Positions 40,640 to 58,186 of a DNA stretch of 64,000 nucleotides are shown piece after piece. The notes under the pieces were generated by a model that worked only from the letters and a program-made list of their open reading frames with translations, was not told the origin of the DNA and did not search any database. Every line of letters begins with the position of its first letter. Position 1 is the stretch's first letter. A program made the position numbers and the translations under genes. Source of the stretch: Desulfuromonadales bacterium (GTDB lineage Bacteria; Desulfobacterota; Desulfuromonadia; Desulfuromonadales; JACZKF01); contig JBAYQP010000003.1 in the NCBI GenBank assembly GCA_041677125.1, positions 45,421-109,420 of the forward strand, in the 5' to 3' direction.

Positions 40640-40651
40640 CGGCGCTTTCGG

Positions 40652-43099: not shown

Positions 43100-43639
43100 T
43101 CAAAAATAGCGCCCGATCTGCAGCAGCAGCGAATTGCTCCCCCGGTTGTCGCGATGCAGATTGGCGTTCGACAGGTGGTGGATGCGAAAGGCGGCATACC
43201 AGTCGCCGCCGATCTCCGTGCCGATCCCCGCCTGTGGATTGAAGTTGATGCGCAGCCCCTGCCCGGCCACCCGATAATCGGTGTAAATCAGGCCGATCCC
43301 CGCTTCGGCGTAGGGGCGCAGAGCTTCGGTGCGCAGCGAATCGAGATAATAAAGAGCGATCATGTTGCCCGAGGCCATGGCCCGGGACCGTGGCGCCGTG
43401 GTCAAGCCCAGAGTCGCCTCCACTTTGAAGCGCAGCGGCGGCGGCGCGCGGTGCGGCCAGACGCGGTCGTAATCGAACAGCGCCACGCCGGAGACCAGAA
43501 GGAAGTCGATATTTTCCGGGTCGTAGGCGTGGCCGAAGGCCGCCGCCCCGCCGAAGCGCGTGGCCACCTTCTCCTCCCCCCGCGCGGCCGCCGGCAAAGC
43601 GGCAAAAAGCAGCAGCAGGAAGAAAAGAAGGCGCTTCAT
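43100..43639 (-). CDS. PagL-like acyloxyacyl hydrolase (outer-membrane lipid deacylase family)
   Basis: Signal peptide MKRLLFFLLLLFAALPAAA. Beta-barrel-like pattern. HHLSNA motif and C-terminal ...LLLQIGRYF. ATGA overlap with the upstream gene. Confidence 0.6.
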   Translation of the reverse strand: MKRLLFFLLLLFAALPAAARGEEKVATRFGGAAAFGHAYDPENIDFLLVSGVALFDYDRVWPHRAPPPLRFKVEATLGLTTAPRSRAMASGNMIALYYLDSLRTEALRPYAEAGIGLIYTDYRVAGQGLRINFNPQAGIGTEIGGDWYAAFRIHHLSNANLHRDNRGSNSLLLQIGRYF

Positions 43640-44703: not shown

Positions 44704-45881
44704 CGGGCGCCTCCTTTGCGGAAAACGACGACCGCATTGTTGCCGCCGAAGGCGAGGGACTGGGAAAGCGCGAACTCCCCCCGCACCGGCGTGTTGGCGG
44801 TCACTGGCGTCGCCGGACACTGCGGATCGGCCTCGCCGAAGCCGGCGTTGGCCGGCACTTCCCCCCGTTCGAGGGCGGCGACGGTGAAGGCGGCCTCGAT
44901 GGCGCCGGAGGCGCCCAGGGTGTGGCCGGTGTACCCCTTGGTCGACAGGAAGGGGACGCCGGGCAAGGTCACCGCCAGGGTGCGGCTCTCGATCCGGTCG
45001 TTGTCGGGGGTGCCGGTGCCATGGGCGTTGACGAAAGCGAGGTCGGCCGCCGCCGCGCCGCATTGGTCGAGGGCCTCGGCCAGCGCCCGCTTCAATCCCG
45101 CCCCTTCGGGGTGCGGCGCCGTCAGATGGTGGGCGTCGCAGGCCGAACCGTAGCCGGCGACGAAGGCGCGGGGCGGTCGGTCCGCCCGCAGGCCATCCGC
45201 CTCCAGCAGCAGGAAGCCGGCGCCCTCGCCGAGATTGAGCCCCTTGCGCCGCCGGTCGAAGGGGCGCACCGGCGCGTCGTCGGTGATCATCAGGGAGATG
45301 AAGCCGTTGTAGGTGATCCGGCAGAGTTCGTCGGCGCCGCCGGCCAGCACCAGATCGCACTCGCCGGCGCGAATCCAGGCGGCGCCGATGCCGACGGCGT
45401 CGGTGCCGGAGGAGCAGGCGTTCACCACCGTCTGGCAGGGACCGGTCAGGCCGAGATCGCGGGCGACGGCCGTCGCCGGATTGCTGCCGAGAAAACGCTC
45501 GATCTGGGCCAACGGCGGTTCTCCGCCCCGCAGGTAGTCGGCGTAAAAATCTTCGTTGTTCATGGCGCTGCCGACCGTGGTGCCGACGATGACTCCGACC
45601 CGTCGGCCGGCGAGGGCCGCCGGCGACCAGCCGGCATCGGCCACCGCCTCGCGGGCGGCGACGATGGCCAGCCGGGCGGTGCGACCGAGACGCTCGCCGC
45701 CGGGCAGCTCGGCCGCTGCGGCGAAGACCGGGTAGCGCACCGGGTGGTCGCTATGAAAGCGCGCCGGCGGCTGCGGCGCGCGTTCGCCGCGATAAAGGGT
45801 GTCGAGGCAGGCCGCAAGGTTTGTCCCGGCGGCGCAGATGCAGCCGAGGCCGGTCACGGCGACCGGACGGGGAGACCTCAT
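44700..45881 (-). CDS. Beta-ketoacyl-ACP synthase (FabF/FabB-like, condensing)
   Basis: Cys-His-His triad context: VVNACSSG, DAHHLTAP, NAHGTGT, GHTLGASG. ATG at 45881 (ATGA overlap with the ACP gene). Confidence 0.9.
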   Translation of the reverse strand: MRSPRPVAVTGLGCICAAGTNLAACLDTLYRGERAPQPPARFHSDHPVRYPVFAAAAELPGGERLGRTARLAIVAAREAVADAGWSPAALAGRRVGVIVGTTVGSAMNNEDFYADYLRGGEPPLAQIERFLGSNPATAVARDLGLTGPCQTVVNACSSGTDAVGIGAAWIRAGECDLVLAGGADELCRITYNGFISLMITDDAPVRPFDRRRKGLNLGEGAGFLLLEADGLRADRPPRAFVAGYGSACDAHHLTAPHPEGAGLKRALAEALDQCGAAAADLAFVNAHGTGTPDNDRIESRTLAVTLPGVPFLSTKGYTGHTLGASGAIEAAFTVAALERGEVPANAGFGEADPQCPATPVTANTPVRGEFALSQSLAFGGNNAVVVFRKGGAR

Positions 45882-46132
45882 GCCGCCCGCCTTTTTTCGA
45901 TGAAGTCGGCCAGGGTGTTCACCGTCTGCAGCGCCGGCCGGCCCTCTTCCATATCCTTGATCTCGACCCCGAAGTGTTTCTGCACCAGCACGATCAGCTC
46001 GACCACGTCGAGAGAATCGAGACCGAGGCCCTCGCCGAACAGCGGCATGTCGTCCTGGATGTCGTCCACGGTGATGTCCTCCAGGTTCAAGCCCTCGATC
46101 AGGATTTTCTTCAAATTCTCTTTGACACTCAT
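45878..46132 (-). CDS. Acyl carrier protein (cluster ACP 2)
   Basis: GLDSLDVVELIVLVQ motif. 84 aa from the ATG at 46132 (ATGA overlap). Confidence 0.85.
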   Translation of the reverse strand: MSVKENLKKILIEGLNLEDITVDDIQDDMPLFGEGLGLDSLDVVELIVLVQKHFGVEIKDMEEGRPALQTVNTLADFIEKRRAA

Positions 46133-47073
46133 TTTCTGCTCCTTGCGTTGGCAGGGGAGGCCGGCGAGGGCTCCCACAGGTCGAAAAAATTAAAGAACTG
46201 ATACGGGTGCTCCCCGCAGTACTGCTCGAGAATTTCGGCGAAGCGCGCGGCGAAGGGGGCAAAATCGGCCGCCTTGCGTCCCAGGCCGGCGGGGACCCGA
46301 AGGACGCTGCACAGGCGCAGGGCGTAGACGTCCGGCCCGGTCTTGGCCGAGAGAAGGATCGCCACCGGGGCGCCGGTGGCCGATGCCAGCTTGTAGGCGC
46401 TGTAAGGGAAACGCACCGGAGCGCCGAGGAAATCGGCTTCGATGCCGTTGCGATCGTTGCCCAGCATCCGATCTCCCATTACCGACAATACCTCGCCCCG
46501 CTTCAGGGCCGCGATCATCTCCAGGGTGCCGCCGAGAAAGCCGCGCGGATCGATGATCCGGTAGGGCGATTCGATGCCGGCGTGCTCGAAATAATGCCGG
46601 TCGATGTCTCCGTCCTCGCGCTGCAGCAGCAGGTTGACCGGCGCCTGGAGAAAGTCGAAGGCGGACATCGCCACCTGCCAGCAGCCGACGTGGGCGGTCA
46701 TCAGGATCAGGCCGCGCCCCTCGGCGACCAGATCGATGAGCTCTTTTCGCCCCTCAAGGCCGACTCGCAGCGCCGCCGGGCCGAGGATGCCGACCGTCGC
46801 CCGGTCGACCAGCACCTGGCCGAGGGCCAGACTCATCCGGAAGCTGTCGACCAGCCGCGGCGGCTGCCGGGGAAAACGCCGGCGCAGATACGGATACGAG
46901 CGGCGGCGCAGCGACGGCCGGAACAGAACATAATACAAAACAACCAAATAGAGAAGGGCGTAAGCCGGCCGCCGGCCGCCGAGCCCGATCAGAAGATAAA
47001 AAATCCGGTGCTGCAGCCGGGAGCCGACGCTGCGGCTGCTCCAGCCGGCGCTCCCCCGTTCAGCGGCCGGCAC
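46129..47073 (-). CDS. LpxL/HtrB-like (lysophospholipid/lipid A type) acyltransferase
   Basis: N-terminal TM, then MTAHVGCWQ (HX4-like acyltransferase motif context). Size and layout match the lauroyl-acyltransferase family. GTG start. Confidence 0.65.
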   Translation of the reverse strand: MPAAERGSAGWSSRSVGSRLQHRIFYLLIGLGGRRPAYALLYLVVLYYVLFRPSLRRRSYPYLRRRFPRQPPRLVDSFRMSLALGQVLVDRATVGILGPAALRVGLEGRKELIDLVAEGRGLILMTAHVGCWQVAMSAFDFLQAPVNLLLQREDGDIDRHYFEHAGIESPYRIIDPRGFLGGTLEMIAALKRGEVLSVMGDRMLGNDRNGIEADFLGAPVRFPYSAYKLASATGAPVAILLSAKTGPDVYALRLCSVLRVPAGLGRKAADFAPFAARFAEILEQYCGEHPYQFFNFFDLWEPSPASPANARSRK

Positions 47074-48214
47074 GGATCGCCTCCCGTACGCCGCGGGCGG
47101 AGCCGTAGACCAGGGCGCCGACCAGCAGCGCCAGCAACGGTGCGAGCAGAAGCGAGCCGAGGAGCCATTCCCACAACCGCTCCAGCCCCTGATGGCCGAG
47201 GGTCTGCAGGTTGAATTCAGTGAGAAACTCGCCCTTGCGCATGAAGTAGCCGGTTTCGATGCAGAGCGCCGGCACCAGGGGCGGCATGCACAGTTGGCTG
47301 GCGCTGACCGCCGCCACCTTGTTCAGGCGCAGAAAGCCGGCGGCGAACAGGATGGCGATGGTGTGCAGCGCCAGCAGCGGCAAGGCGCCGAGAAAAACGC
47401 CGAGCGCCCCGGCGGCGGCCAGTTGGGCCGGCGAGCTGTTTTCGGTCAGCAGCACGCGAATGGAGCGCAGCGGGTGCAGCACGCTCACCTTGGCGCCGCC
47501 GTCGCCATCGGCCACGATCTTGCGATGCGGCCAGGGCAGAATGGAACGCATGGTCAGATGCGTATTGAGCAGCGTCAGGCGCAGATTGTCGCGAAAGGCG
47601 CCAAAGTGCGATACCCGCTCGTCCGCCGGCGGATAATAGACGGAAATCGGCACATCGCGCAGTTCGACGCCGGCCCAGGCGGCCTTGACCAGGACCTCCA
47701 CCTCGAAGGAGTAATGCTGTTGCCCGAGAGGCAGGCGCTCCAGCACCCGCAGCGGATAGGCGCGAAAGCCGCTTTGCGTATCGCCCAGGCTCTTTCCCGT
47801 TTGCAGGCGCAGCCAGAAATTGGAAAACCTGCGGCCGAAGCGGGAAGATCCGGGGACGTTGGCGGTGGCGAAATCCCGGCAACCGACGACGATCGCCTGC
47901 GGATGTTCTTCGATGGCCACCCGGAAGGCCGGGAAGTCGGCGGCATCGTGCTGACCGTCGGCATCGATGGTGACGATATGGCTCATCCCCAGGCGACGCG
48001 CCTCGGCGGCGGCGGTCATGATCGCCGCCCCTTTGCCGCGGTTGCCAGGGTGACGGACGATCCGCACCGGCAGGTCGGCGACGTGATCGGCGCCGCCGTC
48101 GCTGCTGCCGTCGTCGACGACCAGAACATCGGGGTGGACGGCCAGACAGGCTTCGGCCACGGCGCGCACGCTGGCCGCGTGGTTATACAGGGGAATGACG
48201 ATGAGAACGTTCAT
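47060..48214 (-). CDS. Family 2 glycosyltransferase fused to a DUF2062-like membrane domain
   Basis: VIPLYNHA...VVDDGSSDG...TIDADGQHD GT-A motifs, with C-terminal TM helices. Start at MNVLIVIPLYN (48214). Confidence 0.8.
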   Translation of the reverse strand: MNVLIVIPLYNHAASVRAVAEACLAVHPDVLVVDDGSSDGGADHVADLPVRIVRHPGNRGKGAAIMTAAAEARRLGMSHIVTIDADGQHDAADFPAFRVAIEEHPQAIVVGCRDFATANVPGSSRFGRRFSNFWLRLQTGKSLGDTQSGFRAYPLRVLERLPLGQQHYSFEVEVLVKAAWAGVELRDVPISVYYPPADERVSHFGAFRDNLRLTLLNTHLTMRSILPWPHRKIVADGDGGAKVSVLHPLRSIRVLLTENSSPAQLAAAGALGVFLGALPLLALHTIAILFAAGFLRLNKVAAVSASQLCMPPLVPALCIETGYFMRKGEFLTEFNLQTLGHQGLERLWEWLLGSLLLAPLLALLVGALVYGSARGVREAIRAGR

Positions 48215-48304
48215 AAATGCCTGAAAATTCCATTTTTCGCCACGAATACAGACAAATGAACACAAACAGTCATAAATTCGTCGGTATTCGTGCTAATAAC
48301 GGCC

Positions 48305-49750
48305 CTAGCTTTCCATCCGTTCGCTGCTACGGGTGAAGCGCAGGAAAGAGCCGAAATTGCCGGCAAAGCGCCGCCAGCTGTCGGGGGAGCGCCAGAGCAT
48401 CGCCGCATAGCCGAGGAGCACCTTCGGTCGGCTGTAGTGCCGCTGGTAAAAGGTGTTGAACAGCAGGTCCAGGCGCTCCCGGGTCATCCCCTGCGGCACG
48501 AAGAGGAAATGCATGCAGTCCATGCGCGGCCAGTCCTCGTCGAAGCTCCCCAAATCCCTGATCTTCTCATAAAGGGGCGAGCCGGGAAAAGGGGTAAATT
48601 TCGCCAGATTGAAATCGTCGATGGGCAGCGAAAACACATATTCCATGCTGCGGCGGATGCTCTCCTCGCTCTCTCCCGGCAACCCCATCATCAGCAATCC
48701 CTTGACCCGGATGCCGGCCTGTTTGATCAGGCGGATCTTCGTTGCCAGCATGTCCAGGTCGGCGTTCTGCCGGTGCTGCGCCAGCAGCTGCGGATCGCCG
48801 GTCTCGATGCCGAGGCTTGCCATCCAGCAGCCCGCCGCCTTCATCAGCCGCAGCAGCTCGCCATCGACATGCTCGGCGCGCACCGCGCAGTTGAAGGTCA
48901 CGCCGAGGGGGCGGTCGATCATCCGGCGGCAGAACTCCTCCACCCGATCGCGATGAAAGGTGAACTGGTCGTCGTAGAAGTTGACGTGGCGGATGCCGAA
49001 GCGCTCGCGCAGGTAGCGCAGATGTTCGTACAGGTACTCCGCCGAGTTGAAACGGAACGTGCGGCCGAACACCGAGCGGTCGCAATAGCTGCAGGCGTAG
49101 GGGCAGCCGCGGCTGGAGATGCAGCTGGTGTTGGGCGCCTTCGGGTAGTTGAAGATCGGCAGCTTGTAGACGTGCGGAAAACCGGCGAGTTTTTCGTAGG
49201 CGGGAAAAGGCAGGCGGTCCAGATCGATGCCCCGGCCGCGATAGCCGCTGAAGCGCACCTCCGCGCCGTCGCGCCAGACGATGCCCGGCACCTTTTCCGG
49301 CTCCTCCCAGCCGCCCTGCATCAGTTCGGTGAGGCTCTGCTCCCCCTCGCCGGCGATGACGAAGTCGACCGCCGGATACCCCTGCAGCACGTGTTCTTTC
49401 AGGGCCGAGGCGTGCGGGCCGCCGAAAACGGCGCGGATGCCGGGCAGCAGGCTTTTGGCCAGCTCCGCCAGACGCACCCCGTCGAGAAAGCTGGAGGTGG
49501 TGCAGGAGATGCCGAGCCAGGCCGGTCGCTCGGCGAGCAGGCGCTCGCGCAGGCTGGCTTCGGCATCCGGGTGGGCGAAGCAGTCGAGGATATCCGCCTG
49601 CAGCCCTTCTTTCTCCAGCCACGCCGCGATGCTCGCCAGCCCGAGGGGGGGCATCAGATTGGCCAGGCGGGAAATGTCCCGGCCGGCCGCCTCGGCCGGG
49701 TAGCCGAGGGGATGCAGCAGCAGAATCTTGCCTGGGTCGAGAGCGCTCAT
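48305..49750 (-). CDS. B12-binding domain radical SAM protein 1 (COG1032-type)
   Basis: N-terminal Rossmann-like B12-binding region (ILLLHP...PPLGLASIAAWLEKEG). SRGCPYACSYC CX3CX2C motif. ATG at 49750 (ATGA overlap). The 977-aa track ORF is an artefactual extension. Confidence 0.85.
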   Translation of the reverse strand: MSALDPGKILLLHPLGYPAEAAGRDISRLANLMPPLGLASIAAWLEKEGLQADILDCFAHPDAEASLRERLLAERPAWLGISCTTSSFLDGVRLAELAKSLLPGIRAVFGGPHASALKEHVLQGYPAVDFVIAGEGEQSLTELMQGGWEEPEKVPGIVWRDGAEVRFSGYRGRGIDLDRLPFPAYEKLAGFPHVYKLPIFNYPKAPNTSCISSRGCPYACSYCDRSVFGRTFRFNSAEYLYEHLRYLRERFGIRHVNFYDDQFTFHRDRVEEFCRRMIDRPLGVTFNCAVRAEHVDGELLRLMKAAGCWMASLGIETGDPQLLAQHRQNADLDMLATKIRLIKQAGIRVKGLLMMGLPGESEESIRRSMEYVFSLPIDDFNLAKFTPFPGSPLYEKIRDLGSFDEDWPRMDCMHFLFVPQGMTRERLDLLFNTFYQRHYSRPKVLLGYAAMLWRSPDSWRRFAGNFGSFLRFTRSSERMES

Positions 49751-51114
49751 TTCAGGGTGACTCCCGGCGGGCCGAAGGGGACCAGGCTGTCCCAGAGAAT
49801 CCCTCGGAAGCCGAAACGATGCATCACCGTCAGGCGCGCCTGTCCCTCGGATGGCGGGAAGATGCGGTCGCGCCGGCGGCGGAAGGAGGCGAGAATGGCG
49901 GCGTTCATCCATTCGGCATCCACGGCCGGAGAGAAGTAGTAGCTCGGCTTCAGCAGGGACATTTCGGCGGCGAGCACCCCCTCGCGCACCGCCTGGGCGT
50001 GCAGGTCGGTGCCGGGGAGAATGCGGATGCCGGAGAAGGCGAAGACGACGCACTGCTCGAGACGGGCCAGGTTCGCCAGCCCCTCGGTTACCGTGGCCGG
50101 CGTTTCGCCGGGCACGCCGAACATGACGTAATGGGCGCAGGGCAGCCGCTCCTCGACGCAGGCCCGGCTGACAGCCTCGACCTCGGCGAAGCTGAAGCCC
50201 TTGCCGATGGCGGCCAGGGTGGCGTCGCTGGCCGCATCGGTTCCGAGCTCCAGGGCGTAGAGGCCGGAGCGCTTCATCAGGGCCAGGTCGGCGCGACCCA
50301 TGCCTTGCGGCCGGAAGAAGGCGCACCAGCGAATGCCGGCGTCTTGCCGCAGCAACTCCTCGGCGATCTCCAGATGGTGGCCGGCGGGGTCGTTGAAGAC
50401 CGAGTCGGTGAAGAAAAAAGTGTCCGCCCCGAATTCGGCGCGGATGCGCCGCAGCTCCTCCACCACCGCCTCCGCCGGGCGGGCGCGGAAACCGCATCCC
50501 TCCAGCTGCGGATAGCTGCAGTAGGTGCAGGCGAAGGGACAGCCGCGTTTGGTCTGCAGATTGAGCATGCCGGTTTGTTCGAGATAGAAGCGCACCAGTT
50601 CCGGTTCCAGCAGCGGCGCCCCGATGCCGTTGCCGGCCAGGGGCGAGCCGTTCGCCTGCACCGGCGTCGCCGGCTTCTCGCCTCGGCCGAGGCGCTCCAC
50701 CAGGTCGGGAAACCGCCGCTCCCCTTCGCCGACGATGCCGTAATCGGCGCCGACGTAGGCGAGAATTTCTTCCGGCAGGATGGAGAAGGCGGGGCCGCCG
50801 AGAACAACCGGGGCGTCGGTTGCCCGCCGCACCCGGGAGACCAGCTGCCGCGCCTGGGCGAGGTACCAGGCGTTCTCGCCGCTGAAGGAGTCGACGTTGT
50901 CGATGTTGCGCAGCGACAGGCCGACCACCTCGGGGGCGAAGACGCGCACCGCCTCTTCCAGCGCCGTCTCCGAGCGGCCGGCGGCAAGAAAATCGAATTG
51001 CCGCACCTGATGGCCGCGACCGGCGCAAGCGGCGGCGACCATGGCCATGCCGAGCGGGTAGACCGGGAACGGCTCGCAGGTGACGTTGCTGGAGACGAGA
51101 AAGACGCGACTCAT
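49747..51114 (-). CDS. B12-binding domain radical SAM protein 2
   Basis: VFLVSSN...YPLGMAMVAAACAGRGH B12-like region. KRGCPFACTYC motif. ATGA overlaps on both sides. Confidence 0.85.
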   Translation of the reverse strand: MSRVFLVSSNVTCEPFPVYPLGMAMVAAACAGRGHQVRQFDFLAAGRSETALEEAVRVFAPEVVGLSLRNIDNVDSFSGENAWYLAQARQLVSRVRRATDAPVVLGGPAFSILPEEILAYVGADYGIVGEGERRFPDLVERLGRGEKPATPVQANGSPLAGNGIGAPLLEPELVRFYLEQTGMLNLQTKRGCPFACTYCSYPQLEGCGFRARPAEAVVEELRRIRAEFGADTFFFTDSVFNDPAGHHLEIAEELLRQDAGIRWCAFFRPQGMGRADLALMKRSGLYALELGTDAASDATLAAIGKGFSFAEVEAVSRACVEERLPCAHYVMFGVPGETPATVTEGLANLARLEQCVVFAFSGIRILPGTDLHAQAVREGVLAAEMSLLKPSYYFSPAVDAEWMNAAILASFRRRRDRIFPPSEGQARLTVMHRFGFRGILWDSLVPFGPPGVTLK

Positions 51115-52373
51115 CTAGCCGCCTCGCCACGAAAACTGCGCCGGGTGCGCGGATCGTAGCGCCGGTAGGTGCCGTCGGCGATCTCGCGGCCGATGACCCG
51201 TTTGAACAGCTCCCCCATTTTGAGCTGATAGCCGCCATCGGCGTAGAAGGTGTCCCAGGCGTAATGGTACATCTCCTGCAACTTCTCCGGGGTCATCTTC
51301 TTCGGCTGGAAGACCACCTTGTCGGCGCTGTAGTCGTGCCAGTTGCTGTTCAGAATCCGCCCCTCGTTCTGCATCTGGGTGCGCACCGGCGAATGCGGGA
51401 AGGGGGTGAGGATGGTGAACTCGGCGACATCGAGTTCCACCTCGATGAGGAAATCGACCAGCCGCTTGATGTCATCCGCGTCCTGGTCGTCGGTGCCGAG
51501 CAGGATCGTTCCCTCGACGCCGATGCCGTGATCCTTGAGGCGGCGGATGCGGTTGCGGATAACATCGGAGGTATCGAAAACCGCCTGATAGACATACCAG
51601 GCGCCGGCATCGGCGGCCAGCTTGAGAATTTCCGGATCGTCGAGGATCGGGTGGGAGACCCACTTCTTCTTCAGCGGGATCATGGCCGTGAACAGCTCTT
51701 TCAACCACTGGCGATCCTGGGCGAGGGAATTGTCGACGATGAACAGCCGATTGTTCTGGATCGCCTCCATTTCGGCGATCACCTGCTCGATCGGCCGCGG
51801 GCGAAACCGGGTGCCGCCGAGAAAGCCGGTGCAGCAGGGAAAGCAATCGAATTTGCAGCCCCGGGACGCATGCACCAGATCGAGCATCTGCACGCCGCGG
51901 TAGTTGTAGAGGTCGCGGTTGAGGATCTCGCGGCGGGCGGTGCCGACCAGCATGATATCCGGCGGATTGTTCATGTAATCGTAGGTCTTGCGCAGCCGGC
52001 CGTTGCGAAAATCCTCCACCACCGCCGCGAAGCGTCCCTCCGCTTCGCCGAGGAAAACGGCGTCGGCGTGGTCGGCGACCTCTTCGGCGTGCAGCATGAC
52101 GGCAATGCCGCCGAAGATCACCGGCACGCCTTGCCGCCGGTAGTGATCGGCGATTTCGAAGGCGCGCGGCAGTTGACAGGTGAGCATCACCGAAAGAGCA
52201 ATCAGATCGGCCGGGGCGGCAAAGTCGAGGGGCTGCACGTTTTCATCGGTGAAGCTCAGTTCCACCTCGGGAGGCACGGTGGCGGCAAAGACGACGGGCC
52301 CGTGCGGCGGCAGGTGGAACTCGGTCTGCCGGTCGAGCTTCGGCCAGCGGGGATAGATCAGGTGCATGCGCAT
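51111..52373 (-). CDS. B12-binding domain radical SAM protein 3
   Basis: MHLIYP...VPVIFGGIAV B12-like region. SRGCKFDCFPCC (CX3CX2C). GAAAGGA RBS. Confidence 0.85.
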   Translation of the reverse strand: MRMHLIYPRWPKLDRQTEFHLPPHGPVVFAATVPPEVELSFTDENVQPLDFAAPADLIALSVMLTCQLPRAFEIADHYRRQGVPVIFGGIAVMLHAEEVADHADAVFLGEAEGRFAAVVEDFRNGRLRKTYDYMNNPPDIMLVGTARREILNRDLYNYRGVQMLDLVHASRGCKFDCFPCCTGFLGGTRFRPRPIEQVIAEMEAIQNNRLFIVDNSLAQDRQWLKELFTAMIPLKKKWVSHPILDDPEILKLAADAGAWYVYQAVFDTSDVIRNRIRRLKDHGIGVEGTILLGTDDQDADDIKRLVDFLIEVELDVAEFTILTPFPHSPVRTQMQNEGRILNSNWHDYSADKVVFQPKKMTPEKLQEMYHYAWDTFYADGGYQLKMGELFKRVIGREIADGTYRRYDPRTRRSFRGEAAR

Positions 52374-52463
52374 GTCGATTTTCCTTTCTTCACCGAAAGA
52401 AGCGTATCTCCCGCCGCTCGACCAGGGCGCGGAGGGCGCAGAACATTAAAAAGTTAGCTGCCA

Positions 52464-53177
52464 TTATTCTGAAAGAGGCCTGCGCAAAAGGGGGACCAAC
52501 TCCGCCAACGAGCGTATCTCCTTGCCGGCCATCCGTATTTTCCCCGTTTGCAGGGCGATTTGCCCCAGCGCCTGACCATGCTTGCCGCCCGGCCGGGCGA
52601 GAACGAGGAAAACCGCGCCGGGCGGCGCCTCTCCCGCCGGCGCCAGAGAAGCCGGCCGCGCCAAGTCGCAGATGCCCGCCACCGCCAGGTCCGCCTCGTC
52701 CCAGGCGAGCGTCTCCAGGGCCAGGCGCAGGGGGGTCAGACCGTTCTCTTCCGCGGCGCTGACGACATAGGCCGGGCCGGTGAGGCCGAAGCGGATCGCC
52801 GCCTCGCCAAGAAAGCAGTTCGGCAGGGTGTAGGCGAAGAGGTTGGGACTGGCCAGGCGTCCCTGCTGCGGCAGAACGGAATCGAAGTAGTCGTTGTCGG
52901 TGGCCAGGCAGCCGTAGCGGCTGCCGGCGATCAGAGCCACCGGGCGCTTCTGCTGCCAGGCATCGAGGCCGGCATCCTGCAGCGCGAGCGCGATGCCGGC
53001 GAGGCCGATGCGGGAGAAGGGATCGAGGCGGCCAAAGCGCGGGTCGACCTCGGCGAAAACGTCCTTGCGGGTCACCGCCGGCAGCTCGCCGCACTCCAGA
53101 GCGAAGGCCGTCTCCTGCCGCCCCCGGCCGAAACCGGCCGTCGTCACCCAACCGATGCCGAGAATAACGCCGATCAT
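52464..53177 (-). CDS. Short ketosynthase N-terminal-like protein without catalytic Cys (KS partner)
   Basis: 237 aa. KS N-domain-like (RIGLAGIALALQDAG, GLTGPAYVVSAAEENG) but no Cys/His triad. ATGA overlap with the upstream KS. Confidence 0.65.
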   Translation of the reverse strand: MIGVILGIGWVTTAGFGRGRQETAFALECGELPAVTRKDVFAEVDPRFGRLDPFSRIGLAGIALALQDAGLDAWQQKRPVALIAGSRYGCLATDNDYFDSVLPQQGRLASPNLFAYTLPNCFLGEAAIRFGLTGPAYVVSAAEENGLTPLRLALETLAWDEADLAVAGICDLARPASLAPAGEAPPGAVFLVLARPGGKHGQALGQIALQTGKIRMAGKEIRSLAELVPLLRRPLSE

Positions 53178-54307
53178 CCCTCACCTCCCGCCATGGTCAG
53201 CAGCAGGGCGGCATTGATGCCGCCGAAGCCGGAGTTGGTGGTGAGCAGAAATTCCCCTGGCAGGGGCACGGCTTCGGCGCTGACCCAGCCTGCCGCGTTC
53301 TCCTCAGCTTCGGCGAAGCCGGTGGTGGGCGGCAGAATCGTTTCCTGGAGGCTCTTCAGCGCCAGCGCCGTCTCGATGCCGCCGGCCGCGCCCAAGGTGT
53401 GGCCAAGAGCGCCCTTTACCGAATGAATCGGCAGGGTGCGTCCGAAAATCTGTTGGAAAGCGGTCAGTTCCATAGCATCGTTGTAGATGGTGCCGGTGCC
53501 GTGGGCGTTGATCGCCGCCACGGCGGCCGGCGGCAGATCCGCCTGCCGCAGCGCCCCCCGCACCGCCTGGATGAGACCGCAACCGTCCCGGGCCGGCGCG
53601 GTGATGTGGTGGGCGTCGCCGGCCACCCCCCAGCCGAGAATCGCGCCGAGGGGCGCCCGCCCTTCGCGCCGTGCCCGCTCCGGAGCCATCAGCAGCAGGG
53701 CGGCGGCGCCCTCGCCCAGGGTCAGGCCGCTGCGGCGCCGGTCGAAGGGGCGGCAGGGCTCGGCCGAGAGTCCCTTGAGGGCGGAGAAACCGGAGAAAAC
53801 GAATTCGGAAACCAGATCGACGCAGCAGACCAGCACCGTTTCACTCTGGCCGTGGGCGATCATCGCCGCCCCCCGCGCCAGGGCAATGGTCGAGGAGGCG
53901 CAGGCGGCATTGATGTTCAGCCCCGGCGTGCTCAGGCCGAACCGGCGGCCGATGGCTTGGGGCAGTCCGCCGGCGAGCAAATCCTCCTCGTGGGCTGTCG
54001 CCCCCCGCCGCTGGCGCTCCAGGGCGTCGATTCCCCATTTTGTGGTGGCGGTCAGGGCGGCGGCATCGGCGGGAACCGGGCCGAAATCATGCAAAAGCCG
54101 GTCGAGCAGGGGACGCACGCCGGAGGCTTCGTCCTGCGCCGCCAGGCCGTCGATCTCCGCCGCATGCCGGCAAATGTAACCGTCCGTGGCGAACCGGCGC
54201 ACCGGGCGGATGCCCGATTCGCCCGCCAGCAGCCGACGCCAGCTGGCCTCCAGAGTGTCGCCGAGGGCGGTGACCGTCTCGGCGGCGACAATCCACACCG
54301 GCCTCAT
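53174..54307 (-). CDS. Beta-ketoacyl-ACP synthase
   Basis: NAACASS, DAHHITAP, NAHGTGT, GHTLGAAG. ATGA overlaps. Confidence 0.9.
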   Translation of the reverse strand: MRPVWIVAAETVTALGDTLEASWRRLLAGESGIRPVRRFATDGYICRHAAEIDGLAAQDEASGVRPLLDRLLHDFGPVPADAAALTATTKWGIDALERQRRGATAHEEDLLAGGLPQAIGRRFGLSTPGLNINAACASSTIALARGAAMIAHGQSETVLVCCVDLVSEFVFSGFSALKGLSAEPCRPFDRRRSGLTLGEGAAALLLMAPERARREGRAPLGAILGWGVAGDAHHITAPARDGCGLIQAVRGALRQADLPPAAVAAINAHGTGTIYNDAMELTAFQQIFGRTLPIHSVKGALGHTLGAAGGIETALALKSLQETILPPTTGFAEAEENAAGWVSAEAVPLPGEFLLTTNSGFGGINAALLLTMAGGEG

Positions 54308-54765
54308 GACAGCTCCCCCCGTTGCCAGCGCTCGCGAAAAGCCGCCATGAAGGGCGGCGGCACCAGCAGGACGTTCTCCTCGTGATCAAGAAGCATTTGC
54401 ACCGAATAGCCGGTGGTCGTCACCTGGCCGGCGGCATTGCGGATGATGAATTCATGGTTGAGGCGCACCGCGTCCGACCAGTGCAGCACCCCTTCGATGG
54501 TGAAGTCGTCCTGAAAATGCAGGGGACGGTGGTAATCGCAATGCAGCTTGCGCAGGGGAGCGACCACCCCCTGCCGGTACATCTCCATATAGCCGAGGCC
54601 GTAGCGATCCCCCAAGGCCACTCGGGCGTCCTCGAAATAGCCGGGATAGCGGCCGTGCCAGACGATCCCCAGCGGATCGACTTCCTCGAAGCGCACCCGC
54701 CGCGCGACAACCGCCCGCAGCGGTGTCGGATCGCCGGCACGGGGGGGGAAGTACGGTTTCAGCAT
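54304..54765 (-). CDS. 4HBT/YbgC-like hotdog thioesterase
   Basis: RVRFEEVDPLGIVWHGRYPGYFEDARV is a typical 4HBT catalytic region. Start at MLKPYF (54765). Confidence 0.75.
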   Translation of the reverse strand: MLKPYFPPRAGDPTPLRAVVARRVRFEEVDPLGIVWHGRYPGYFEDARVALGDRYGLGYMEMYRQGVVAPLRKLHCDYHRPLHFQDDFTIEGVLHWSDAVRLNHEFIIRNAAGQVTTTGYSVQMLLDHEENVLLVPPPFMAAFRERWQRGELS

Positions 54766-55148
54766 CGGCTCGCCTCCGCCGGTGTCAGAACGAGGATGAA
54801 TGAGGCCGCCAGGTCCTCGTCGCGCCACAGCCGCGTCGCGCAAAAGAGTCGGTCGTCGCGGTGCTGCTCCCGGCTCTCGATGCGGATTTCCTGCTGCGGC
54901 CGCAATTGTTGCAGGAACTTGGCGTTTTCCACCCCCACCAGGCGCAGTGGCTGGCCCAGGGCATCCTCGGCGACGCAGAGGCCGGCCTGCAGTTGCACCA
55001 CCGCCGGCAAAATCGGATAGCCGGGGAAATGGCCGGCGAAGCCGGGAAAATCGGCCGGAAAACAGAAGCGCTGCTGCACTGCGCCCGGCGCGATCCGGCG
55101 CAGGTGGTCGATGGCGACCGCTCGAATAGCTTTGGTGATTTTACTCAT
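54759..55148 (-). CDS. FabZ/FabA-like hotdog dehydratase
   Basis: FAGHFPGYPILPAVVQLQ motif (HFPxxPxxPG-like). 129 aa from the ATG at 55148. Confidence 0.65.
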   Translation of the reverse strand: MSKITKAIRAVAIDHLRRIAPGAVQQRFCFPADFPGFAGHFPGYPILPAVVQLQAGLCVAEDALGQPLRLVGVENAKFLQQLRPQQEIRIESREQHRDDRLFCATRLWRDEDLAASFILVLTPAEASRC

Positions 55149-55815
55149 CGGTAACTCTTGCTTCCTCCAGCCACAGGGTAAGCCGGTAGCCGCCGCGGGC
55201 GTCCTCAAGAAGGATGCCGCCGGGCGCCGGTGTCTCGGCCGCCGGTTGATAATCGAAGTAGCGCACCCGCCACTCCTCCTCGTCCCCCTGCGCCTGCTTT
55301 TCAAGCAGCTGGGCATCGGGACCGCCGAAGACGAAAAGAAGCACCCGTTCTTTCTCCCGGCGGGTAAGTCGGTACTCCGTTGCGCCGATAGCGAGTCGAT
55401 CCGTGACCAAGGGCTGCGGATCGAGAAACACGTGGCGCACCGCAGCGGCAATGGCCCCGCTCACCCCGGGGGTGCGGGCCAGTTCGGGGAAGAGAAAATG
55501 TTCCACGTGCGTCTGGGGGGTTACGGCGATATCGAATAATTTCACCCCGAGATCGTTCAGGCCGATCAGGCGCGCCTCGCGGCGGCCGGTGTCGAACCGG
55601 AGAAAACCGCTCATCGGCACCTTCGCCCCGCGAATTTCGAAGAGCACCGTTTGCCGGATGCGCCAGACCCGCTCGCCGCCGGTCCACAGATTCTCCAGCA
55701 GCTCCGCCGCGCTCAGCGGTCGGGTCGGCGTGGCCGGCATCGGCGCGAAGGGCGGGGACGCGCAGCCGCCGGCCAGCAGCAAAGTAAGCCAAAGCAGGCA
55801 GCCGATCTTCTTCAT
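55141..55815 (-). CDS. Lipoprotein (DUF3261-like, aryl-polyene-cluster associated)
   Basis: Lipobox LLLAGGC after MKKIGCLLWLT. ATGA overlap with the MMPL gene. The track ORF to 56856 is an artefact. Confidence 0.7.
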   Translation of the reverse strand: MKKIGCLLWLTLLLAGGCASPPFAPMPATPTRPLSAAELLENLWTGGERVWRIRQTVLFEIRGAKVPMSGFLRFDTGRREARLIGLNDLGVKLFDIAVTPQTHVEHFLFPELARTPGVSGAIAAAVRHVFLDPQPLVTDRLAIGATEYRLTRREKERVLLFVFGGPDAQLLEKQAQGDEEEWRVRYFDYQPAAETPAPGGILLEDARGGYRLTLWLEEARVTDE

Positions 55816-58172: not shown

Positions 58173-58186
58173 ATCAACTCACTTGT

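What the first reader, a model, noticed from the sequence alone, without database searches (positions are those of the whole stretch)
48305..52373. Three tandem, translationally coupled B12-binding radical SAM genes embedded in the polyketide-lipid cluster
Each of the three consecutive genes has an N-terminal cobalamin-binding-like Rossmann region and a CX3CX2C motif (CPYACSYC, CPFACTYC, CKFDCFPC). They are linked by ATGA overlaps at 49747-49750 and 51111-51114. The triad sits between the GT2 gene and a KS/KS-partner pair. It is bracketed by the two 90-nt intergenic gaps (48215-48304 and 52374-52463) in an otherwise gap-free operon, so it looks like an inserted module. To my knowledge canonical APE/flexirubin clusters have no B12-rSAM enzymes. 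This enzyme class methylates or forms C-C bonds at unactivated carbons (hopanoid methylases, BchE-type cyclases, membrane-spanning lipid synthases). The prediction is anaerobic methylation, cyclisation or cross-linking of the ACP- or lipid-bound chain. A relationship to proposals linking FAS-like clusters plus rSAM genes to unusual cyclised lipids in anammox bacteria is speculation only.
Basis: partly seen in the sequence, partly recalled or inferred. Interest (0 to 1): 0.85.

Follow-up and report, generated by a model that had tools for sequence, protein, structure and literature searches.

The report
Radical SAM trio in polyene-lipid cluster
Three back-to-back radical-SAM enzyme genes really do sit inside an aryl-polyene-like lipid gene cluster of an anaerobic Desulfuromonadales bacterium, but this layout is widespread in anaerobes and already catalogued as the 'ladderane-like' lipid cluster, and its product is still unknown.

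Summary
Three minus-strand genes (51111-52373, 49747-51114, 48305-49750) carry a B12-binding-type domain plus CX3CX2C. They are linked by ATGA overlaps and flanked by two 90-nt gaps, inside an aryl-polyene/flexirubin-like type II PKS-lipid cluster.

It is not new. The middle gene is a full-length member of NCBIfam TIGR04072 'rSAM_ladder_B12' (672 bits, cut-off 360). With its upstream part (KR, KS, phytoene-desaturase-like, AMP-ligase), the cluster matches the Kuenenia kuste3335-3352 / Desulfotalea cluster described in 2009.

In 80 genomes from many anaerobic phyla the same order recurs:
- rSAM2 was the search query, so all 80 have it. rSAM3 lies next to it in 57/71 loci and co-occurs with its KS/CLF pair (49/50 against 1/14).
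- rSAM1 is present in 28/72. It co-occurs with the ammonia-lyase (13/13) and never with an alternative SPASM radical SAM gene (0/20).
- The full triad is present in 23/67.

So this is an old modular block, not a recent insertion. The chemistry is untested. I favour cobalamin-dependent C-methylation or another tailoring of the ACP- or lipid-bound aryl polyene. rSAM2 is TsrM/BzaD-like: it keeps TsrM's Arg69 but lacks its iron-ligating Glu.

Verdict: new member of a known, uncharacterised kind; moderate interest.

The parts
51111..52373 (-). rSAM3: 420-aa B12-domain-type radical SAM protein (CKFDCFPC at residues 173-180). It has no curated family.
   Evidence: Pfam and NCBIfam results. The AF2 model (pLDDT 70) matches AprD4, QCMT, TsrM and CysS over its full length. 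It is 61-87% identical across phyla and lies next to rSAM2 in 57/71 loci. It co-occurs with KS_A/CLF_A: 49/50 against 1/14. The orthogroup collapses to about 2 representatives at the 50% identity level.
49747..51114 (-). rSAM2: 455-aa member of TIGR04072 'lipid biosynthesis B12-binding/radical SAM protein' (CPFACTYC at residues 192-199). It was the query used to find the 80 related loci, so it is present in all of them by construction.
   Evidence: NCBIfam scores 672.3 bits against a cut-off of 360, covering profile positions 1-442 of 443. A 100% identical protein is annotated in a Desulfuromonadales MAG. The closest solved structure is TsrM 6WTE, E 6e-32; TsrM Arg69 is conserved, but Glu273 is Val239 and Glu236 is Tyr201 here.
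48305..49750 (-). rSAM1: 481-aa B12-binding radical SAM protein (CPYACSYC at residues 216-223), nearest to BchE, HpnJ and ApyD but a member of none. It is an optional module.
   Evidence: It lies next to rSAM2 in 28/72 loci. It is present in 13/13 loci that have the ammonia-lyase and in 0/20 loci that have the alternative SPASM radical SAM gene.
49747..49750 (-). ATGA overlap between the rSAM2 stop codon and the rSAM1 start codon.
   Evidence: Read directly. The median rSAM2->rSAM1 spacing in 22 loci is about 5 nt.
51111..51114 (-). ATGA overlap between the rSAM3 stop codon and the rSAM2 start codon.
   Evidence: Read directly. The median rSAM3->rSAM2 spacing in 45 loci is about 5 nt, and 21 of them are <=3 nt.
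52374..52463 (-). 90-nt spacer between CLF_A and rSAM3, carrying an AAGGAAA Shine-Dalgarno-like site 7 nt upstream of the rSAM3 ATG.
   Evidence: Sequence. No promoter- or terminator-like site and no Rfam match.
48215..48304 (-). 90-nt spacer between rSAM1 and the GT2 gene.
   Evidence: Sequence. No promoter, terminator or Rfam match. The spacer length ranges from 8 to 163 nt in 20 other loci.
53174..54307 (-). KS_A: active ketosynthase (ApeO/AmcF-like) that travels with rSAM3.
   Evidence: Pfam KS N- and C-terminal domains; AmcF 212.6 bits, below the 325 cut-off. Co-occurrence.
52464..53177 (-). CLF_A: 237-aa truncated KS-like partner without the active-site Cys.
   Evidence: Pfam ketoacyl-synt N-terminal domain only. 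Sequence. Co-occurrence with rSAM3.
47060..48214 (-). GT2 + DUF2062 (ApeJ-like) glycosyl/acyl-transferase directly downstream.
   Evidence: Present downstream in 49/61 loci.
59267..60853 (-). Aromatic amino-acid ammonia-lyase (near HutH and FlxA). Its presence predicts rSAM1.
   Evidence: Pfam 564 bits. NCBIfam HAL 514 bits against a 524 cut-off; FlxA 487 against 700. Association with rSAM1: Fisher p 2.4e-7, not corrected for phylogeny.
39314..64000 (-). The whole APE/flexirubin-like type II PKS-lipid cluster that holds the triad. It continues about 7 kb beyond the window end. In transcription order: KS (cut by the window end), PlsC-type acyltransferase, AMP-ligase, ammonia-lyase, ApeP-like dehydratase, LolA, MMPL, DUF3261, ApeI-like dehydratase, thioesterase, KS_A, CLF_A, rSAM3, rSAM2, rSAM1, GT2, LpxL-like acyltransferase, ACP, KS_B, CLF_B, PagL-like, 145-aa unknown, BtrH_N/DUF4872, ABC pair.
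   Evidence: The upstream part seen in L081 is KR, KS, amine-oxidase/phytoene-desaturase-like, KS and ACP.

Best explanation
Shown. The three genes encode three distinct, anciently diverged B12-domain-type radical SAM enzymes. They form the tailoring block of an aryl-polyene/flexirubin-like type II PKS-lipid pathway. This is the cluster type first described in Kuenenia stuttgartiensis (kuste3335-3352) and Desulfotalea psychrophila, which genome-mining tools label 'ladderane' in non-anammox anaerobes. The source is a Desulfuromonadales MAG.

The block is modular:
- rSAM2 (TIGR04072) was the query, so it is in all 80 loci; 9 of 67 carry it without rSAM3 or rSAM1.
- rSAM3 travels with its own KS/CLF pair.
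- rSAM1 travels with the aromatic amino-acid ammonia-lyase. In other lineages it is replaced by a SPASM-type radical SAM gene.

The three genes lie in one minus-strand run with overlapping or near-abutting ends and no terminator-like site between them.

Inferred mechanism.
- The lyase and the AMP-ligase load an aryl-acrylate starter on ACP.
- KS/CLF, KR and the dehydratases build a polyene.
- The radical SAM enzymes modify the ACP- or lipid-bound chain, most likely by cobalamin-dependent C-methyl transfer.
- rSAM2 would act on an sp2 carbon of the ring or polyene, like its nearest characterised relatives TsrM and BzaD. Unlike TsrM it has an open unique iron, so radical SAM cleavage remains possible.
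- rSAM1 would act on the lyase-derived head group.
- rSAM3 would act on the product of KS_A/CLF_A.
- The product is then attached to a lipid anchor (thioesterase, GT2/DUF2062, LpxL- and PlsC-type acyltransferases) and exported to the outer membrane (MMPL, LolA, DUF3261).
For: Identity:
- rSAM2 scores 672 bits against TIGR04072 (cut-off 360) over the full length.
- The 100% identical protein is annotated 'lipid biosynthesis B12-binding/radical SAM protein [Desulfuromonadales bacterium]'.

Cluster type:
- Gene content (FlxY-, FlxB- and FlxA-like proteins just under their cut-offs; amine-oxidase/phytoene-desaturase-like).
- This matches the Kuenenia/Desulfotalea gene lists in PMC2649909 and PMC4790861.
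- antiSMASH 'ladderane' clusters are reported in the same non-anammox phyla.

Conservation and modularity:
- Synteny counts are. rSAM1 with the lyase: 13/13. rSAM1 with the SPASM gene: 0/20.
- Reciprocal look-ups from rSAM3 and from rSAM1 land in the same cluster, including in the isolate Chrysiogenes arsenatis.

Operon: ATGA overlaps; conserved spacing of about 5 nt; no promoter or terminator in the gaps.

Methyl-transfer lean:
- After its own family, rSAM2's best matches are BzaD (191.6 bits) and the tryptophan 2-C-methyltransferase family (126.6 bits).
- Its best solved structure is TsrM.
- TsrM's lower-axial Arg69 is invariant in rSAM2, while the Fe-ligating Glu273 is Val/Ile (residue roles from PMC12931638).
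- No ApeB-type methyltransferase is seen in the window cluster. No Methyltransf family is among the 25 most-hit Pfam families listed (of 55 hit) for 74 extra intra-cluster ORFs of related loci.
Against: - No experiment bears on the chemistry.
- The Kuenenia radical SAM pair kuste3342/3343, inferred here to correspond to rSAM2 and rSAM3, could not even be detected when expressed in E. coli.
- Desulfotalea lipids showed only acyclic polyunsaturated hydrocarbons, and these were not linked genetically to the cluster.
- Cobalamin use by rSAM3 is uncertain. Its B12-binding score is marginal, and its best fold match is AprD4, which to my knowledge does not use cobalamin. AprD4 is also the best solved-structure sequence match of rSAM1.
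- Non-methylating class-B enzymes exist (BchE, HpnJ, OxsB). rSAM1 scores highest against BchE and HpnJ, and rSAM2 keeps the hydrophilic Arg that the review associates with enzymes that do not do radical methylation.
- No cobalamin riboswitch is present in the window or in the upstream part of the cluster.
- The co-occurrence statistics are not corrected for phylogeny and come from the 80 best-matching loci only.
Confidence: 0.6

Rival explanations
1. Radical C-C bond formation. One or more of the enzymes (especially rSAM3 together with KS_A/CLF_A) cyclises or cross-links the growing unsaturated chain. The result would be carbocyclic, 'ladderane-like' or membrane-spanning lipids instead of methyl branches.
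For: - The family name and cluster homology tie these genes to the anammox candidate ladderane genes.
- Anammox Cluster I also pairs a KS/CLF heterodimer with a B12 radical SAM enzyme.
- rSAM3 is unusually constrained, at 61-87% identity across phyla.
- rSAM1 is closest to the cyclase BchE and the ring-contracting HpnJ.
Against: - Ladderanes are found only in anammox bacteria.
- Desulfotalea, which carries the cluster, showed acyclic products only.
- The cluster occurs in many phyla where no cyclic lipids are known.
- The BchE and HpnJ scores are far below their cut-offs.
- No auxiliary Fe-S cluster motif is conserved.
Confidence: 0.12
2. Anchor or attachment chemistry. The radical SAM enzymes act not on the polyene but on the lipid or sugar anchor, or on the linkage made by the neighbouring thioesterase, GT2/DUF2062 and LpxL-like acyltransferase. 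Examples would be deoxygenation, epimerisation or methylation of a sugar or glycerol moiety.
For: - rSAM2 always sits between the ApeK-like thioesterase and the ApeJ-like GT2 / ApeD-like acyltransferase.
- AprD4, a sugar diol-dehydratase, is the best solved-structure match of rSAM1 and the best fold match of rSAM3.
- In some loci rSAM1 is replaced by a GT28-like glycosyltransferase plus a hydrolase-SPASM fusion.
Against: - rSAM3 tracks a KS/CLF pair and rSAM1 tracks the starter-forming lyase, not the attachment genes.
- AprD4-family scores are far below the cut-off: 111 and 64 bits against 500.
Confidence: 0.12
3. Anaerobic desaturation or dehydrogenation. The enzymes introduce or shift double bonds in a fatty-acyl chain. 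This is the anaerobic PUFA/PUHC pathway proposed by Rattray et al.
For: The proposal and the polyunsaturated hydrocarbon observation are in PMC2649909. A phytoene-desaturase-like flavoenzyme is part of the cluster.
Against: - The cluster already has a KR plus two dehydratases and no enoyl reductase. As in APE pathways, that yields polyenes without any desaturase.
- The hydrocarbons were never tied to these genes.
- Among the curated NCBIfam families the three proteins matched, none is annotated as a desaturase.
Confidence: 0.08
4. Recently inserted or horizontally acquired module, or housekeeping genes (for example BchE) that happen to lie in the cluster.
For: Two equal 90-nt gaps bracket the triad. 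JGI annotates rSAM1 homologues as BchE.
Against: - The same order is seen in 23/67 loci as the full triad and in 30/67 more as the rSAM3+rSAM2 pair, across many phyla.
- GC content is 0.645-0.655, against 0.654-0.681 in the flanks.
- Gap lengths are variable elsewhere.
- BchE scores 179.7 bits against a 481 cut-off.
Confidence: 0.02

Closest known systems
Kuenenia stuttgartiensis kuste3335-3352 / Desulfotalea psychrophila DP185x FAS-like clusters (Rattray 2009, PMC2649909; Javidpour 2016, PMC4790861); antiSMASH 'ladderane' class in non-anammox phyla
   Same: Same gene set: adjacent radical SAM genes, phytoene-desaturase-like flavoenzyme, 'phenylacetyl-CoA ligase'-type AMP-ligase, GT, MMPL-type membrane protein, several FabF-like KS including non-canonical ones, ACPs, FabG and FabZ-like proteins. 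rSAM2 belongs to the family named after this context. The taxonomic spread is also the same.
   Different: The window has a third B12-type radical SAM gene (rSAM1) plus an ammonia-lyase. From the published gene lists, Kuenenia instead has 'SAM methylase' genes (kuste3338, kuste3347). I could not compare sequences directly with the kuste or DP proteins. No ladderanes are expected here.
Aryl polyene (APE) cluster of E. coli/Xenorhabdus (apeA-R) and the flexirubin cluster (FlxA, FlxB, FlxY)
   Same: ApeC/O-type KS/CLF, ApeR-type KS, ApeQ/FlxB-type KR, ApeI- and ApeP-like dehydratases, ApeH/FlxY-type ligase, ApeK thioesterase, ApeJ GT2-DUF2062, ApeD LpxL-like acyltransferase, ApeL/M/N export set, FlxA-like lyase.
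   Different: Canonical APE clusters have the SAM methyltransferase ApeB and no radical SAM gene. Here there is no ApeB. Instead there are up to three B12-type radical SAM genes, a second KS/CLF pair and a phytoene-desaturase-like enzyme. The Flx family scores fall just below their cut-offs. No DarA/DarB pair was identified in the window.
TsrM (tryptophan 2-C-methyltransferase, PDB 6WTE/6WTF) and BzaD: cobalamin radical SAM enzymes that methylate sp2 carbons
   Same: These are the best characterised relatives of rSAM2 (BzaD 191.6 bits, TsrM family 126.6 bits, TsrM structure E 6e-32). TsrM's lower-axial Arg69 is invariant in the rSAM2 family.
   Different: The scores are far below those families' cut-offs. 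TsrM's Glu273, which blocks the unique iron, is Val/Ile in rSAM2, and Glu236 is Tyr. rSAM2 can therefore probably bind and cleave SAM in the canonical way. The substrate is presumably an acyl-ACP or a lipid, not tryptophan.
BchE / HpnJ / ApyD / AprD4 group of class-B-like radical SAM enzymes
   Same: Highest-scoring named families for rSAM1 (170-180 bits). AprD4 is the best solved-structure match for rSAM1 (by sequence) and for the rSAM3 model (by fold).
   Different: All scores are 3-4 fold below the family cut-offs, and the genomic context is unrelated (no chlorophyll, hopanoid, RiPP or aminoglycoside genes).
Anammox 'Cluster I' (kuste3603-3608: amxACP, amxFabZ, amxFabF2/FabFmut heterodimer, PDH-like, B12 radical SAM)
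   Same: Same logic of ACP + KS/CLF-like heterodimer + phytoene-desaturase-like enzyme + B12 radical SAM. This parallels the KS_A/CLF_A-rSAM3 module.
   Different: Cluster I is reported as unique to anammox bacteria and lacks the APE export and attachment genes. Orthology to rSAM3 or rSAM2 was not testable here.

Membership tests
TIGR04072 (rSAM_ladder_B12, lipid biosynthesis B12-binding/radical SAM protein) - rSAM2 | Whole-protein HMM score above the curated cut-off, with full-length coverage | tested here: met
   672.3 bits against a cut-off of 360; residues 3-445 match profile positions 1-442 of 443.
TIGR04072 - rSAM2 | Located in a FAS/PKS-like lipid biosynthesis cluster | tested here: met
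   In the window. Across the 80 loci, KS_B lies downstream in 55/61, the LpxL-like acyltransferase in 57/61 and GT2 in 49/61.
TIGR04072 - rSAM1 and rSAM3 | HMM score above the cut-off | tested here: not met
   rSAM1 99.8 bits and rSAM3 45.8 bits, against a cut-off of 360. They are separate families.
Class B (cobalamin-dependent) radical SAM enzymes | N-terminal B12-binding Rossmann domain (PF02310) plus radical SAM core (PF04055) with CX3CX2C | tested here: met
   rSAM1 and rSAM2 pass both Pfam models well above the cut-offs, and the Cys triad is invariant.
Class B radical SAM enzymes - rSAM3 | Same two domains | tested here: inconclusive
   PF02310 33.6 bits against 32.1; PF04055 24.7 bits against 29.5 (below). 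CX3CX2C is invariant. The AF2 model (pLDDT 70) aligns over its full length to AprD4, QCMT, TsrM and CysS.
Class B radical SAM enzymes (all three) | Actual cobalamin binding and use | not testable with these tools
   This needs purified protein. AprD4-like proteins have the fold but, to my knowledge, no cobalamin. No cobalamin riboswitch is nearby.
TsrM-type non-radical Csp2 methylase - rSAM2 | [quoted passage not shown] | tested here: met
   Aligned Arg69, invariant in 12 and in 81 homologues. The residue's role is taken from PMC12931638.
TsrM-type non-radical Csp2 methylase - rSAM2 | Glu ligating the unique Fe of the [4Fe-4S] cluster (TsrM Glu273) and polar Glu236 | tested here: not met
   Glu273 aligns to Val239 (family pattern FFTDS[VI]FN) and Glu236 aligns to Tyr201.
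BchE (TIGR02026) / HpnJ (TIGR03471) - rSAM1 | HMM score above the cut-off, and a chlorophyll or hopanoid gene context | tested here: not met
   179.7 bits against 481 and 170.3 against 577.6. The context is a PKS-lipid cluster.
Aryl polyene (APE) biosynthetic cluster | Type II KS/CLF + KR + two dehydratases + ACP + aryl-acid AMP-ligase, without an enoyl reductase | tested here: met
   The ApeI-like and ApeP-like Pfam hits are below their cut-offs in the window (22 bits). They are listed without a weak or faint mark for the same genes in the precomputed annotation.
Aryl polyene (APE) biosynthetic cluster | Attachment and export set (ApeD, ApeJ, ApeK, ApeL, ApeM, ApeN equivalents) | tested here: met
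   Lip_A_acyltrans, GT2+DUF2062, 4HBT, LolA and MMPL. The DUF3261 hit (19.9 bits against a 22.3 cut-off) is below threshold.
Aryl polyene (APE) biosynthetic cluster | An aryl polyene product (yellow pigment) | not testable with these tools
   No chemistry is available for this MAG or, as far as my literature searches found, for any cluster that carries rSAM2.
Flexirubin cluster | FlxA, FlxB and FlxY equivalogs above their cut-offs | tested here: not met
   487 bits against 700, 317 against 340, 445 against 520. Close relatives, not equivalogs.
Kuenenia/Desulfotalea 'ladderane-candidate' cluster | Orthology of rSAM2/rSAM3 to kuste3342/3343 and DP1853/DP1855 | not testable with these tools
   Those sequences could not be fetched. 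The link is inferred from the family name, the matching gene lists and Desulfobulbales loci with the same layout (L049, L076-L079).

The most novel reading that the evidence does not exclude
The KS_A/CLF_A-rSAM3-rSAM2(-rSAM1) block is an iterative 'elongate and radical-modify' machine. It would build a not-yet-described class of methyl-branched or carbocyclic aryl-polyene outer-membrane lipids in many anaerobic phyla, and it would be the evolutionary source of the anammox ladderane machinery. The mutually exclusive partners (lyase + rSAM1 against the SPASM radical SAM) would then mark two alternative head-group chemistries.
Probability: 0.1. Interest if true: 0.85.

Novelty: new member of a known kind. 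Interest (0 to 1): 0.45.

Why it matters
These 'ladderane-like' clusters are among the commonest unexplained biosynthetic loci in anaerobic bacteria, spanning Desulfobacterota, PVC phyla, Nitrospirota, Omnitrophota, Acidobacteriota and Chrysiogenota. They contain the only radical SAM genes ever proposed for ladderane synthesis, yet no product or enzyme activity is known.

This window adds no new kind of system. The comparison made here does sharpen the problem into testable units:
- an rSAM2 gene that was the query and is present in every locus examined, with mixed TsrM-like and canonical active-site features;
- a hyper-conserved rSAM3 bound to its own KS/CLF pair;
- an rSAM1 that appears only with the ammonia-lyase and never with an alternative SPASM enzyme.

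Cultured carriers exist: Chrysiogenes arsenatis, Desulfuromonas spp., Geoalkalibacter, Geomonas, Maridesulfovibrio and Desulfocurvibacter. Genetics and lipidomics are therefore feasible outside the intractable anammox bacteria.

Tried and rejected
- Recent insertion or horizontal transfer of the triad: rejected. GC content is flat, the order is conserved in many phyla, and gap lengths vary elsewhere.
- Regulatory elements in the two 90-nt gaps: no promoter- or terminator-like sites beyond chance. No Rfam family, including the cobalamin riboswitch, anywhere in the cluster or its upstream part.
- Recent tandem duplication: rejected. The three proteins are only 23-33% identical over partial lengths.
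- rSAM1 = BchE, as JGI annotates its homologues: rejected by the HMM cut-offs.
- Auxiliary Fe-S (SPASM or twitch) clusters in the three proteins: none conserved.
- A functional clue from more distant rSAM3 relatives: the 31-40% identical relatives also belong to no named family.
- Literature search for the family name or TIGR04072: no hits. Search for APE plus B12 radical SAM: nothing specific.
- KS_A/CLF_A against KS_B/CLF_B as the ApeO/ApeC equivalent: the solved-structure sequence search gave only generic FabF hits and did not discriminate. AmcF similarity is equal for both KS.

Full report
**1. Observation**

The window's minus strand carries three consecutive ORFs with exactly the reported ends: rSAM3 51111-52373 (420 aa), rSAM2 49747-51114 (455 aa) and rSAM1 48305-49750 (481 aa). 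I read the two ATGA stop/start overlaps directly (ctgaaATGAgcg at 49750-49747 and gctagATGAgtc at 51114-51111). I also read the two 90-nt spacers.

Pfam finds B12-binding plus Radical_SAM in all three. The scores are strong for rSAM1 and rSAM2. For rSAM3 they are marginal: 33.6 bits against a cut-off of 32.1, and 24.7 bits against 29.5.

The motifs CPYACSYC, CPFACTYC and CKFDCFPC are there. In alignments of 30, 81 and 58 homologues taken from other genomes, the CX3CX2C triad is the only conserved cysteine set, apart from one extra Cys in rSAM1. An AlphaFold model of rSAM3 (pLDDT 70) aligns over its full length with AprD4, QCMT, TsrM and CysS. Its architecture is therefore that of the class-B-like enzymes.

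The three proteins are 23-33% identical to each other. They are three old families, not duplicates.

**2. What surrounds it**

All genes from 64000 down to about 39300 run on the minus strand. Pfam and NCBIfam identify them, in transcription order:
- a KS (cut by the window end);
- PlsC-type acyltransferase, FlxY-like AMP-ligase, aromatic amino-acid ammonia-lyase;
- ApeP-like dehydratase, LolA, MMPL, DUF3261 lipoprotein, ApeI-like dehydratase, 4HBT thioesterase;
- KS_A, a 237-aa KS-like partner (CLF_A), then the three radical SAM genes;
- GT2+DUF2062, LpxL-like acyltransferase, ACP, KS_B, CLF_B;
- a PagL-like protein, a small unknown, a BtrH_N/DUF4872 protein and an ABC transporter.

I looked up the lyase on its public contig to see the part beyond the window end. 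That part holds a FlxB-like KR, a KS, a 490-aa amine-oxidase/phytoene-desaturase-like flavoprotein, a KS and an ACP.

This is the complete parts list of an aryl-polyene/flexirubin-type pathway. The published E. coli APE cluster has 18 genes, apeA-R. It includes the SAM methyltransferase ApeB and no radical SAM gene (PMC8253772). Relative to it, the window cluster lacks ApeB. It gains the radical SAM genes, a second KS/CLF pair, the flavoprotein and the lyase.

**3. Identity of the three genes**

*rSAM2* is a full-length member of NCBIfam TIGR04072, 'rSAM_ladder_B12 / lipid biosynthesis B12-binding/radical SAM protein' (672 bits, cut-off 360). The identical protein is so annotated in a Desulfuromonadales MAG, which identifies the source organism.

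*rSAM1* scores highest against BchE, HpnJ, ApyD and a P-methyltransferase family (164-180 bits). All of these are several-fold below their cut-offs.

*rSAM3* matches no curated family. Its homologues carry only generic names. JGI's 'BchE' label on rSAM1 homologues is an over-annotation.

Against solved structures, rSAM2's best match is TsrM (E 6e-32), rSAM1's is AprD4, and rSAM3 barely touches QCMT.

**4. It is a known cluster type**

The gene set consists of adjacent radical SAM genes, a phytoene-desaturase-like enzyme, a 'phenylacetyl-CoA ligase', a GT, an MMPL-type membrane protein, multiple and non-canonical FabF-like genes, ACPs, FabG and FabZ-like genes. This is what Rattray et al. (2009) described for Kuenenia kuste3335-3352 and Desulfotalea psychrophila. 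They noted similar clusters in Geobacter and Pelobacter, and the gene list is given in Javidpour et al. 2016.

Metagenome surveys report antiSMASH 'ladderane' clusters in Desulfobacterota, Verrucomicrobiota, Planctomycetota, Omnitrophota and other phyla, 'serving unknown functions'. Two 2026 reviews still list the ladderane radical SAM enzymes as uncharacterised.

The novelty claim is overstated. I could not fetch the kuste or DP sequences, so orthology to kuste3342/3343 is inferred, not shown.

**5. Comparative test of linkage**

I scanned one genome per species (GTDB) with an rSAM2 alignment. The best 80 loci span these groups:
- Desulfuromonadales/Geobacterales, Desulfobacterales, Desulfovibrionales, Desulfobulbales;
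- Lentisphaerota, Verrucomicrobiota, Planctomycetota, Acidobacteriota;
- Nitrospirota, Omnitrophota, Cloacimonadota, Calditrichota, Elusimicrobiota;
- some Alphaproteobacteria.

I mapped 25 window proteins onto these loci with tblastn. The order is conserved: thioesterase, (KS_A, CLF_A, rSAM3), rSAM2, (rSAM1), GT2, LpxL-like acyltransferase, ACP, KS_B, CLF_B.

| Feature | Count |
|---|---|
| rSAM3 directly upstream of rSAM2 | 57/71 loci with enough flank |
| rSAM1 directly downstream of rSAM2 | 28/72 |
| Full triad | 23/67 |
| rSAM3 + rSAM2 only | 30/67 |
| rSAM2 + rSAM1 only | 5/67 |
| rSAM2 alone | 9/67 |
| KS_A/CLF_A present when rSAM3 is present | 49/50 |
| KS_A/CLF_A present when rSAM3 is absent | 1/14 |

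Mean identity to the window protein is higher for rSAM3 (70%) and rSAM1 (66%) than for rSAM2 (50%). In a library of 1.84 billion sequences clustered at 50% identity, the rSAM3 orthogroup collapses to about two full-length representatives. The next relatives drop to 31-40% identity and are themselves unnamed.

Spacing within the triad is conserved: the median is about 5 nt for both junctions. The outer gaps vary. rSAM1->GT2 is 8-163 nt. CLF_A->rSAM3 is 2-1141 nt, in only five measurable loci.

Reciprocal look-ups starting from an rSAM3 homologue (a Nitrospirota MAG) and from an rSAM1 homologue (the isolate Chrysiogenes arsenatis) land in the same cluster. The latter has the full triad.

**6. 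Two further patterns**

These patterns were not in the finding.
- The ammonia-lyase is present in 13 informative loci, and all 13 have rSAM1. Of 23 loci without the lyase, 20 lack rSAM1 (Fisher p 2.4e-7).
- In 20 loci a roughly 350-aa SPASM-type radical SAM gene occupies the lyase's position. It is AhbD/NirJ2-like, at 127-161 bits, far below the cut-offs. None of those 20 loci has rSAM1 or the lyase (p about 1e-6 and 3e-5).
- Both flavours occur within one phylum: L004 against L042.
- A third flavour replaces rSAM1 with a GT28-like gene plus a hydrolase-SPASM fusion (probably also L027, where ORFs of similar length occupy the same slot but were not individually annotated).

These tests are not corrected for phylogeny. 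They rest on the 80 best loci and on tblastn presence/absence limited by contig ends.

**7. 'Inserted module'?**

Relative to canonical APE clusters, the radical SAM genes do sit as an extra block between the ApeK-like and ApeJ-like genes. It is an ancient, modular part of this cluster family and not an insertion in this genome:
- GC content is 0.645-0.655, against 0.654-0.681 in the flanks.
- Neither gap contains promoter- or terminator-like sites; hits over the 9 kb scanned are at the level expected from shuffles.
- No Rfam element is present, and in particular no cobalamin riboswitch.
- The rSAM3 gap ends in an AAGGAAA ribosome-binding site.

**8. Mechanism (inferred)**

From the parts, the pathway most likely runs as follows.
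1. It loads an aryl-acrylate made by the lyase through the FlxY-like ligase.
2. It builds a polyene with KS/CLF, KR and two dehydratases. No enoyl reductase is present.
3. It attaches the product to a lipid anchor and exports it.

The radical SAM enzymes are tailoring enzymes for the carrier-bound chain. I favour cobalamin-dependent C-methyl transfer, for two reasons.
- Beyond its own family, rSAM2 is closest to BzaD and TsrM, both sp2-carbon methylases.
- No ApeB-type methyltransferase is in the window cluster. No Methyltransf family is among the 25 most-hit Pfam families listed (of 55 hit) for 74 extra intra-cluster ORFs of related loci.

At residue level rSAM2 keeps TsrM's lower-axial Arg69; it is invariant in 81 sequences. 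It replaces TsrM's iron-blocking Glu273 by Val/Ile, and Glu236 by Tyr. This combination suggests cobalamin chemistry in a TsrM/OxsB-like polar pocket, together with normal SAM binding at the cluster.

rSAM1's strict association with the lyase points to the head group as its target. rSAM3's association with KS_A/CLF_A points to the product of that elongation step.

None of this has been tested:
- The best fold match of rSAM3, and the best structural sequence match of rSAM1, is AprD4. To my knowledge AprD4 does not use cobalamin.
- Non-methylating class-B enzymes exist.
- The Kuenenia radical SAM pair kuste3342/3343, which I infer to correspond to rSAM2 and rSAM3, could not be expressed in E. 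coli.
- The only chemistry reported for a carrier (Desulfotalea) is acyclic polyunsaturated hydrocarbons of unproven origin.

Rivals:
- radical cyclisation or cross-linking (about 0.12);
- action on the anchor or sugar (about 0.12);
- anaerobic desaturation (about 0.08);
- chance or housekeeping genes, or a recent insertion (about 0.02).

**9. Verdict**

The finding is real and correctly described. It belongs to a known, widely distributed and still uncharacterised cluster family, so it is a new member of a known kind. Interest is moderate (0.45). The open question of what these 'ladderane-like' clusters make, and what their radical SAM enzymes do, is genuine and relevant to ladderane biosynthesis. 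The window itself adds no new category. The useful output is a set of sharper, testable module assignments and a list of cultured carriers.

Noticed in passing
window 59267-60853 (-): The cluster's aromatic amino-acid ammonia-lyase has a HAL-like Ser-His selectivity pair (IRSHAAGLG) but a TAL/PAL-like NQDVVSM motif. It scores just under the HutH cut-offs (514 bits against 524) and well under FlxA (487 against 700). The starter acid (urocanate, coumarate or cinnamate) is therefore unclear. The motif interpretation is from memory.
   Followed up: partly
L030:4057-5085, L055:868-1926, L049:7109-8161 and 17 further loci: A roughly 350-aa SPASM-type radical SAM gene (AhbD/NirJ2-like, no family cut-off reached) occupies the lyase slot in 20 related clusters. 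It is mutually exclusive with the lyase and with rSAM1. It may correspond to Kuenenia kuste3338 (inference).
   Followed up: partly
L082:8637-11613, L083:3757-6733 (ORFs of similar length in the same slot in L027:11508-14503): A third cluster flavour: directly after rSAM2 come a GT28/UDPGT-like glycosyltransferase and a 588-aa alpha/beta-hydrolase fused to a radical SAM/SPASM domain, in place of rSAM1.
   Followed up: no
L084:13527-16105 (Chrysiogenes arsenatis): This cultured isolate has the full triad. About 4 kb downstream, after a MqsR/MqsA toxin-antitoxin pair, it has a fourth B12-binding radical SAM gene (468 aa) next to a KSIII-like gene (ACP_syn_III_C).
   Followed up: no
window 39314-43903 (-): The PagL-like gene (43100-43903), a 145-aa unknown (42569-43006), a BtrH_N/DUF4872 protein (41479-42585; BtrH is an ACP-dependent acyltransferase) and an ABC-2 transporter pair (39314-41818) are conserved downstream members of the cluster in Desulfuromonadales-type loci (for example L007, L021, L024).
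   Followed up: partly
window 43636-44709 (-) and 52464-53177 (-): The two KS-like partners differ. CLF_B (357 aa) has Gln at the position of the KS active-site Cys (TVSQFEMS), as in type II PKS chain-length factors. CLF_A is truncated (237 aa) and has neither Cys nor Gln there (VVSAAEENG).
   Followed up: no
L081:1-1718 (about 5-7 kb beyond the window end): Immediately upstream of the cluster's first gene (KR) lie a Roadblock/LC7 protein, an Arf-family small GTPase (an MglB/MglA-like pair) and a 220-aa protein without a Pfam match.
   Followed up: no
window 13931-14317 (+); 11794-11866, 38518-38931 (+): RNase P RNA (295 bits) and four tRNA genes. Three of the tRNA genes, together with serS (37241-38509), mark the downstream border of the cluster. 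There is no cobalamin riboswitch anywhere in the window.
   Followed up: yes
related loci: Recurring accessory genes inside related clusters: polysaccharide deacetylase (5 loci; compare the kuste3351 annotation), extra KR (6) and KS (6), amine-oxidase/phytoene-desaturase-like (4) and MipA (2).
   Followed up: no
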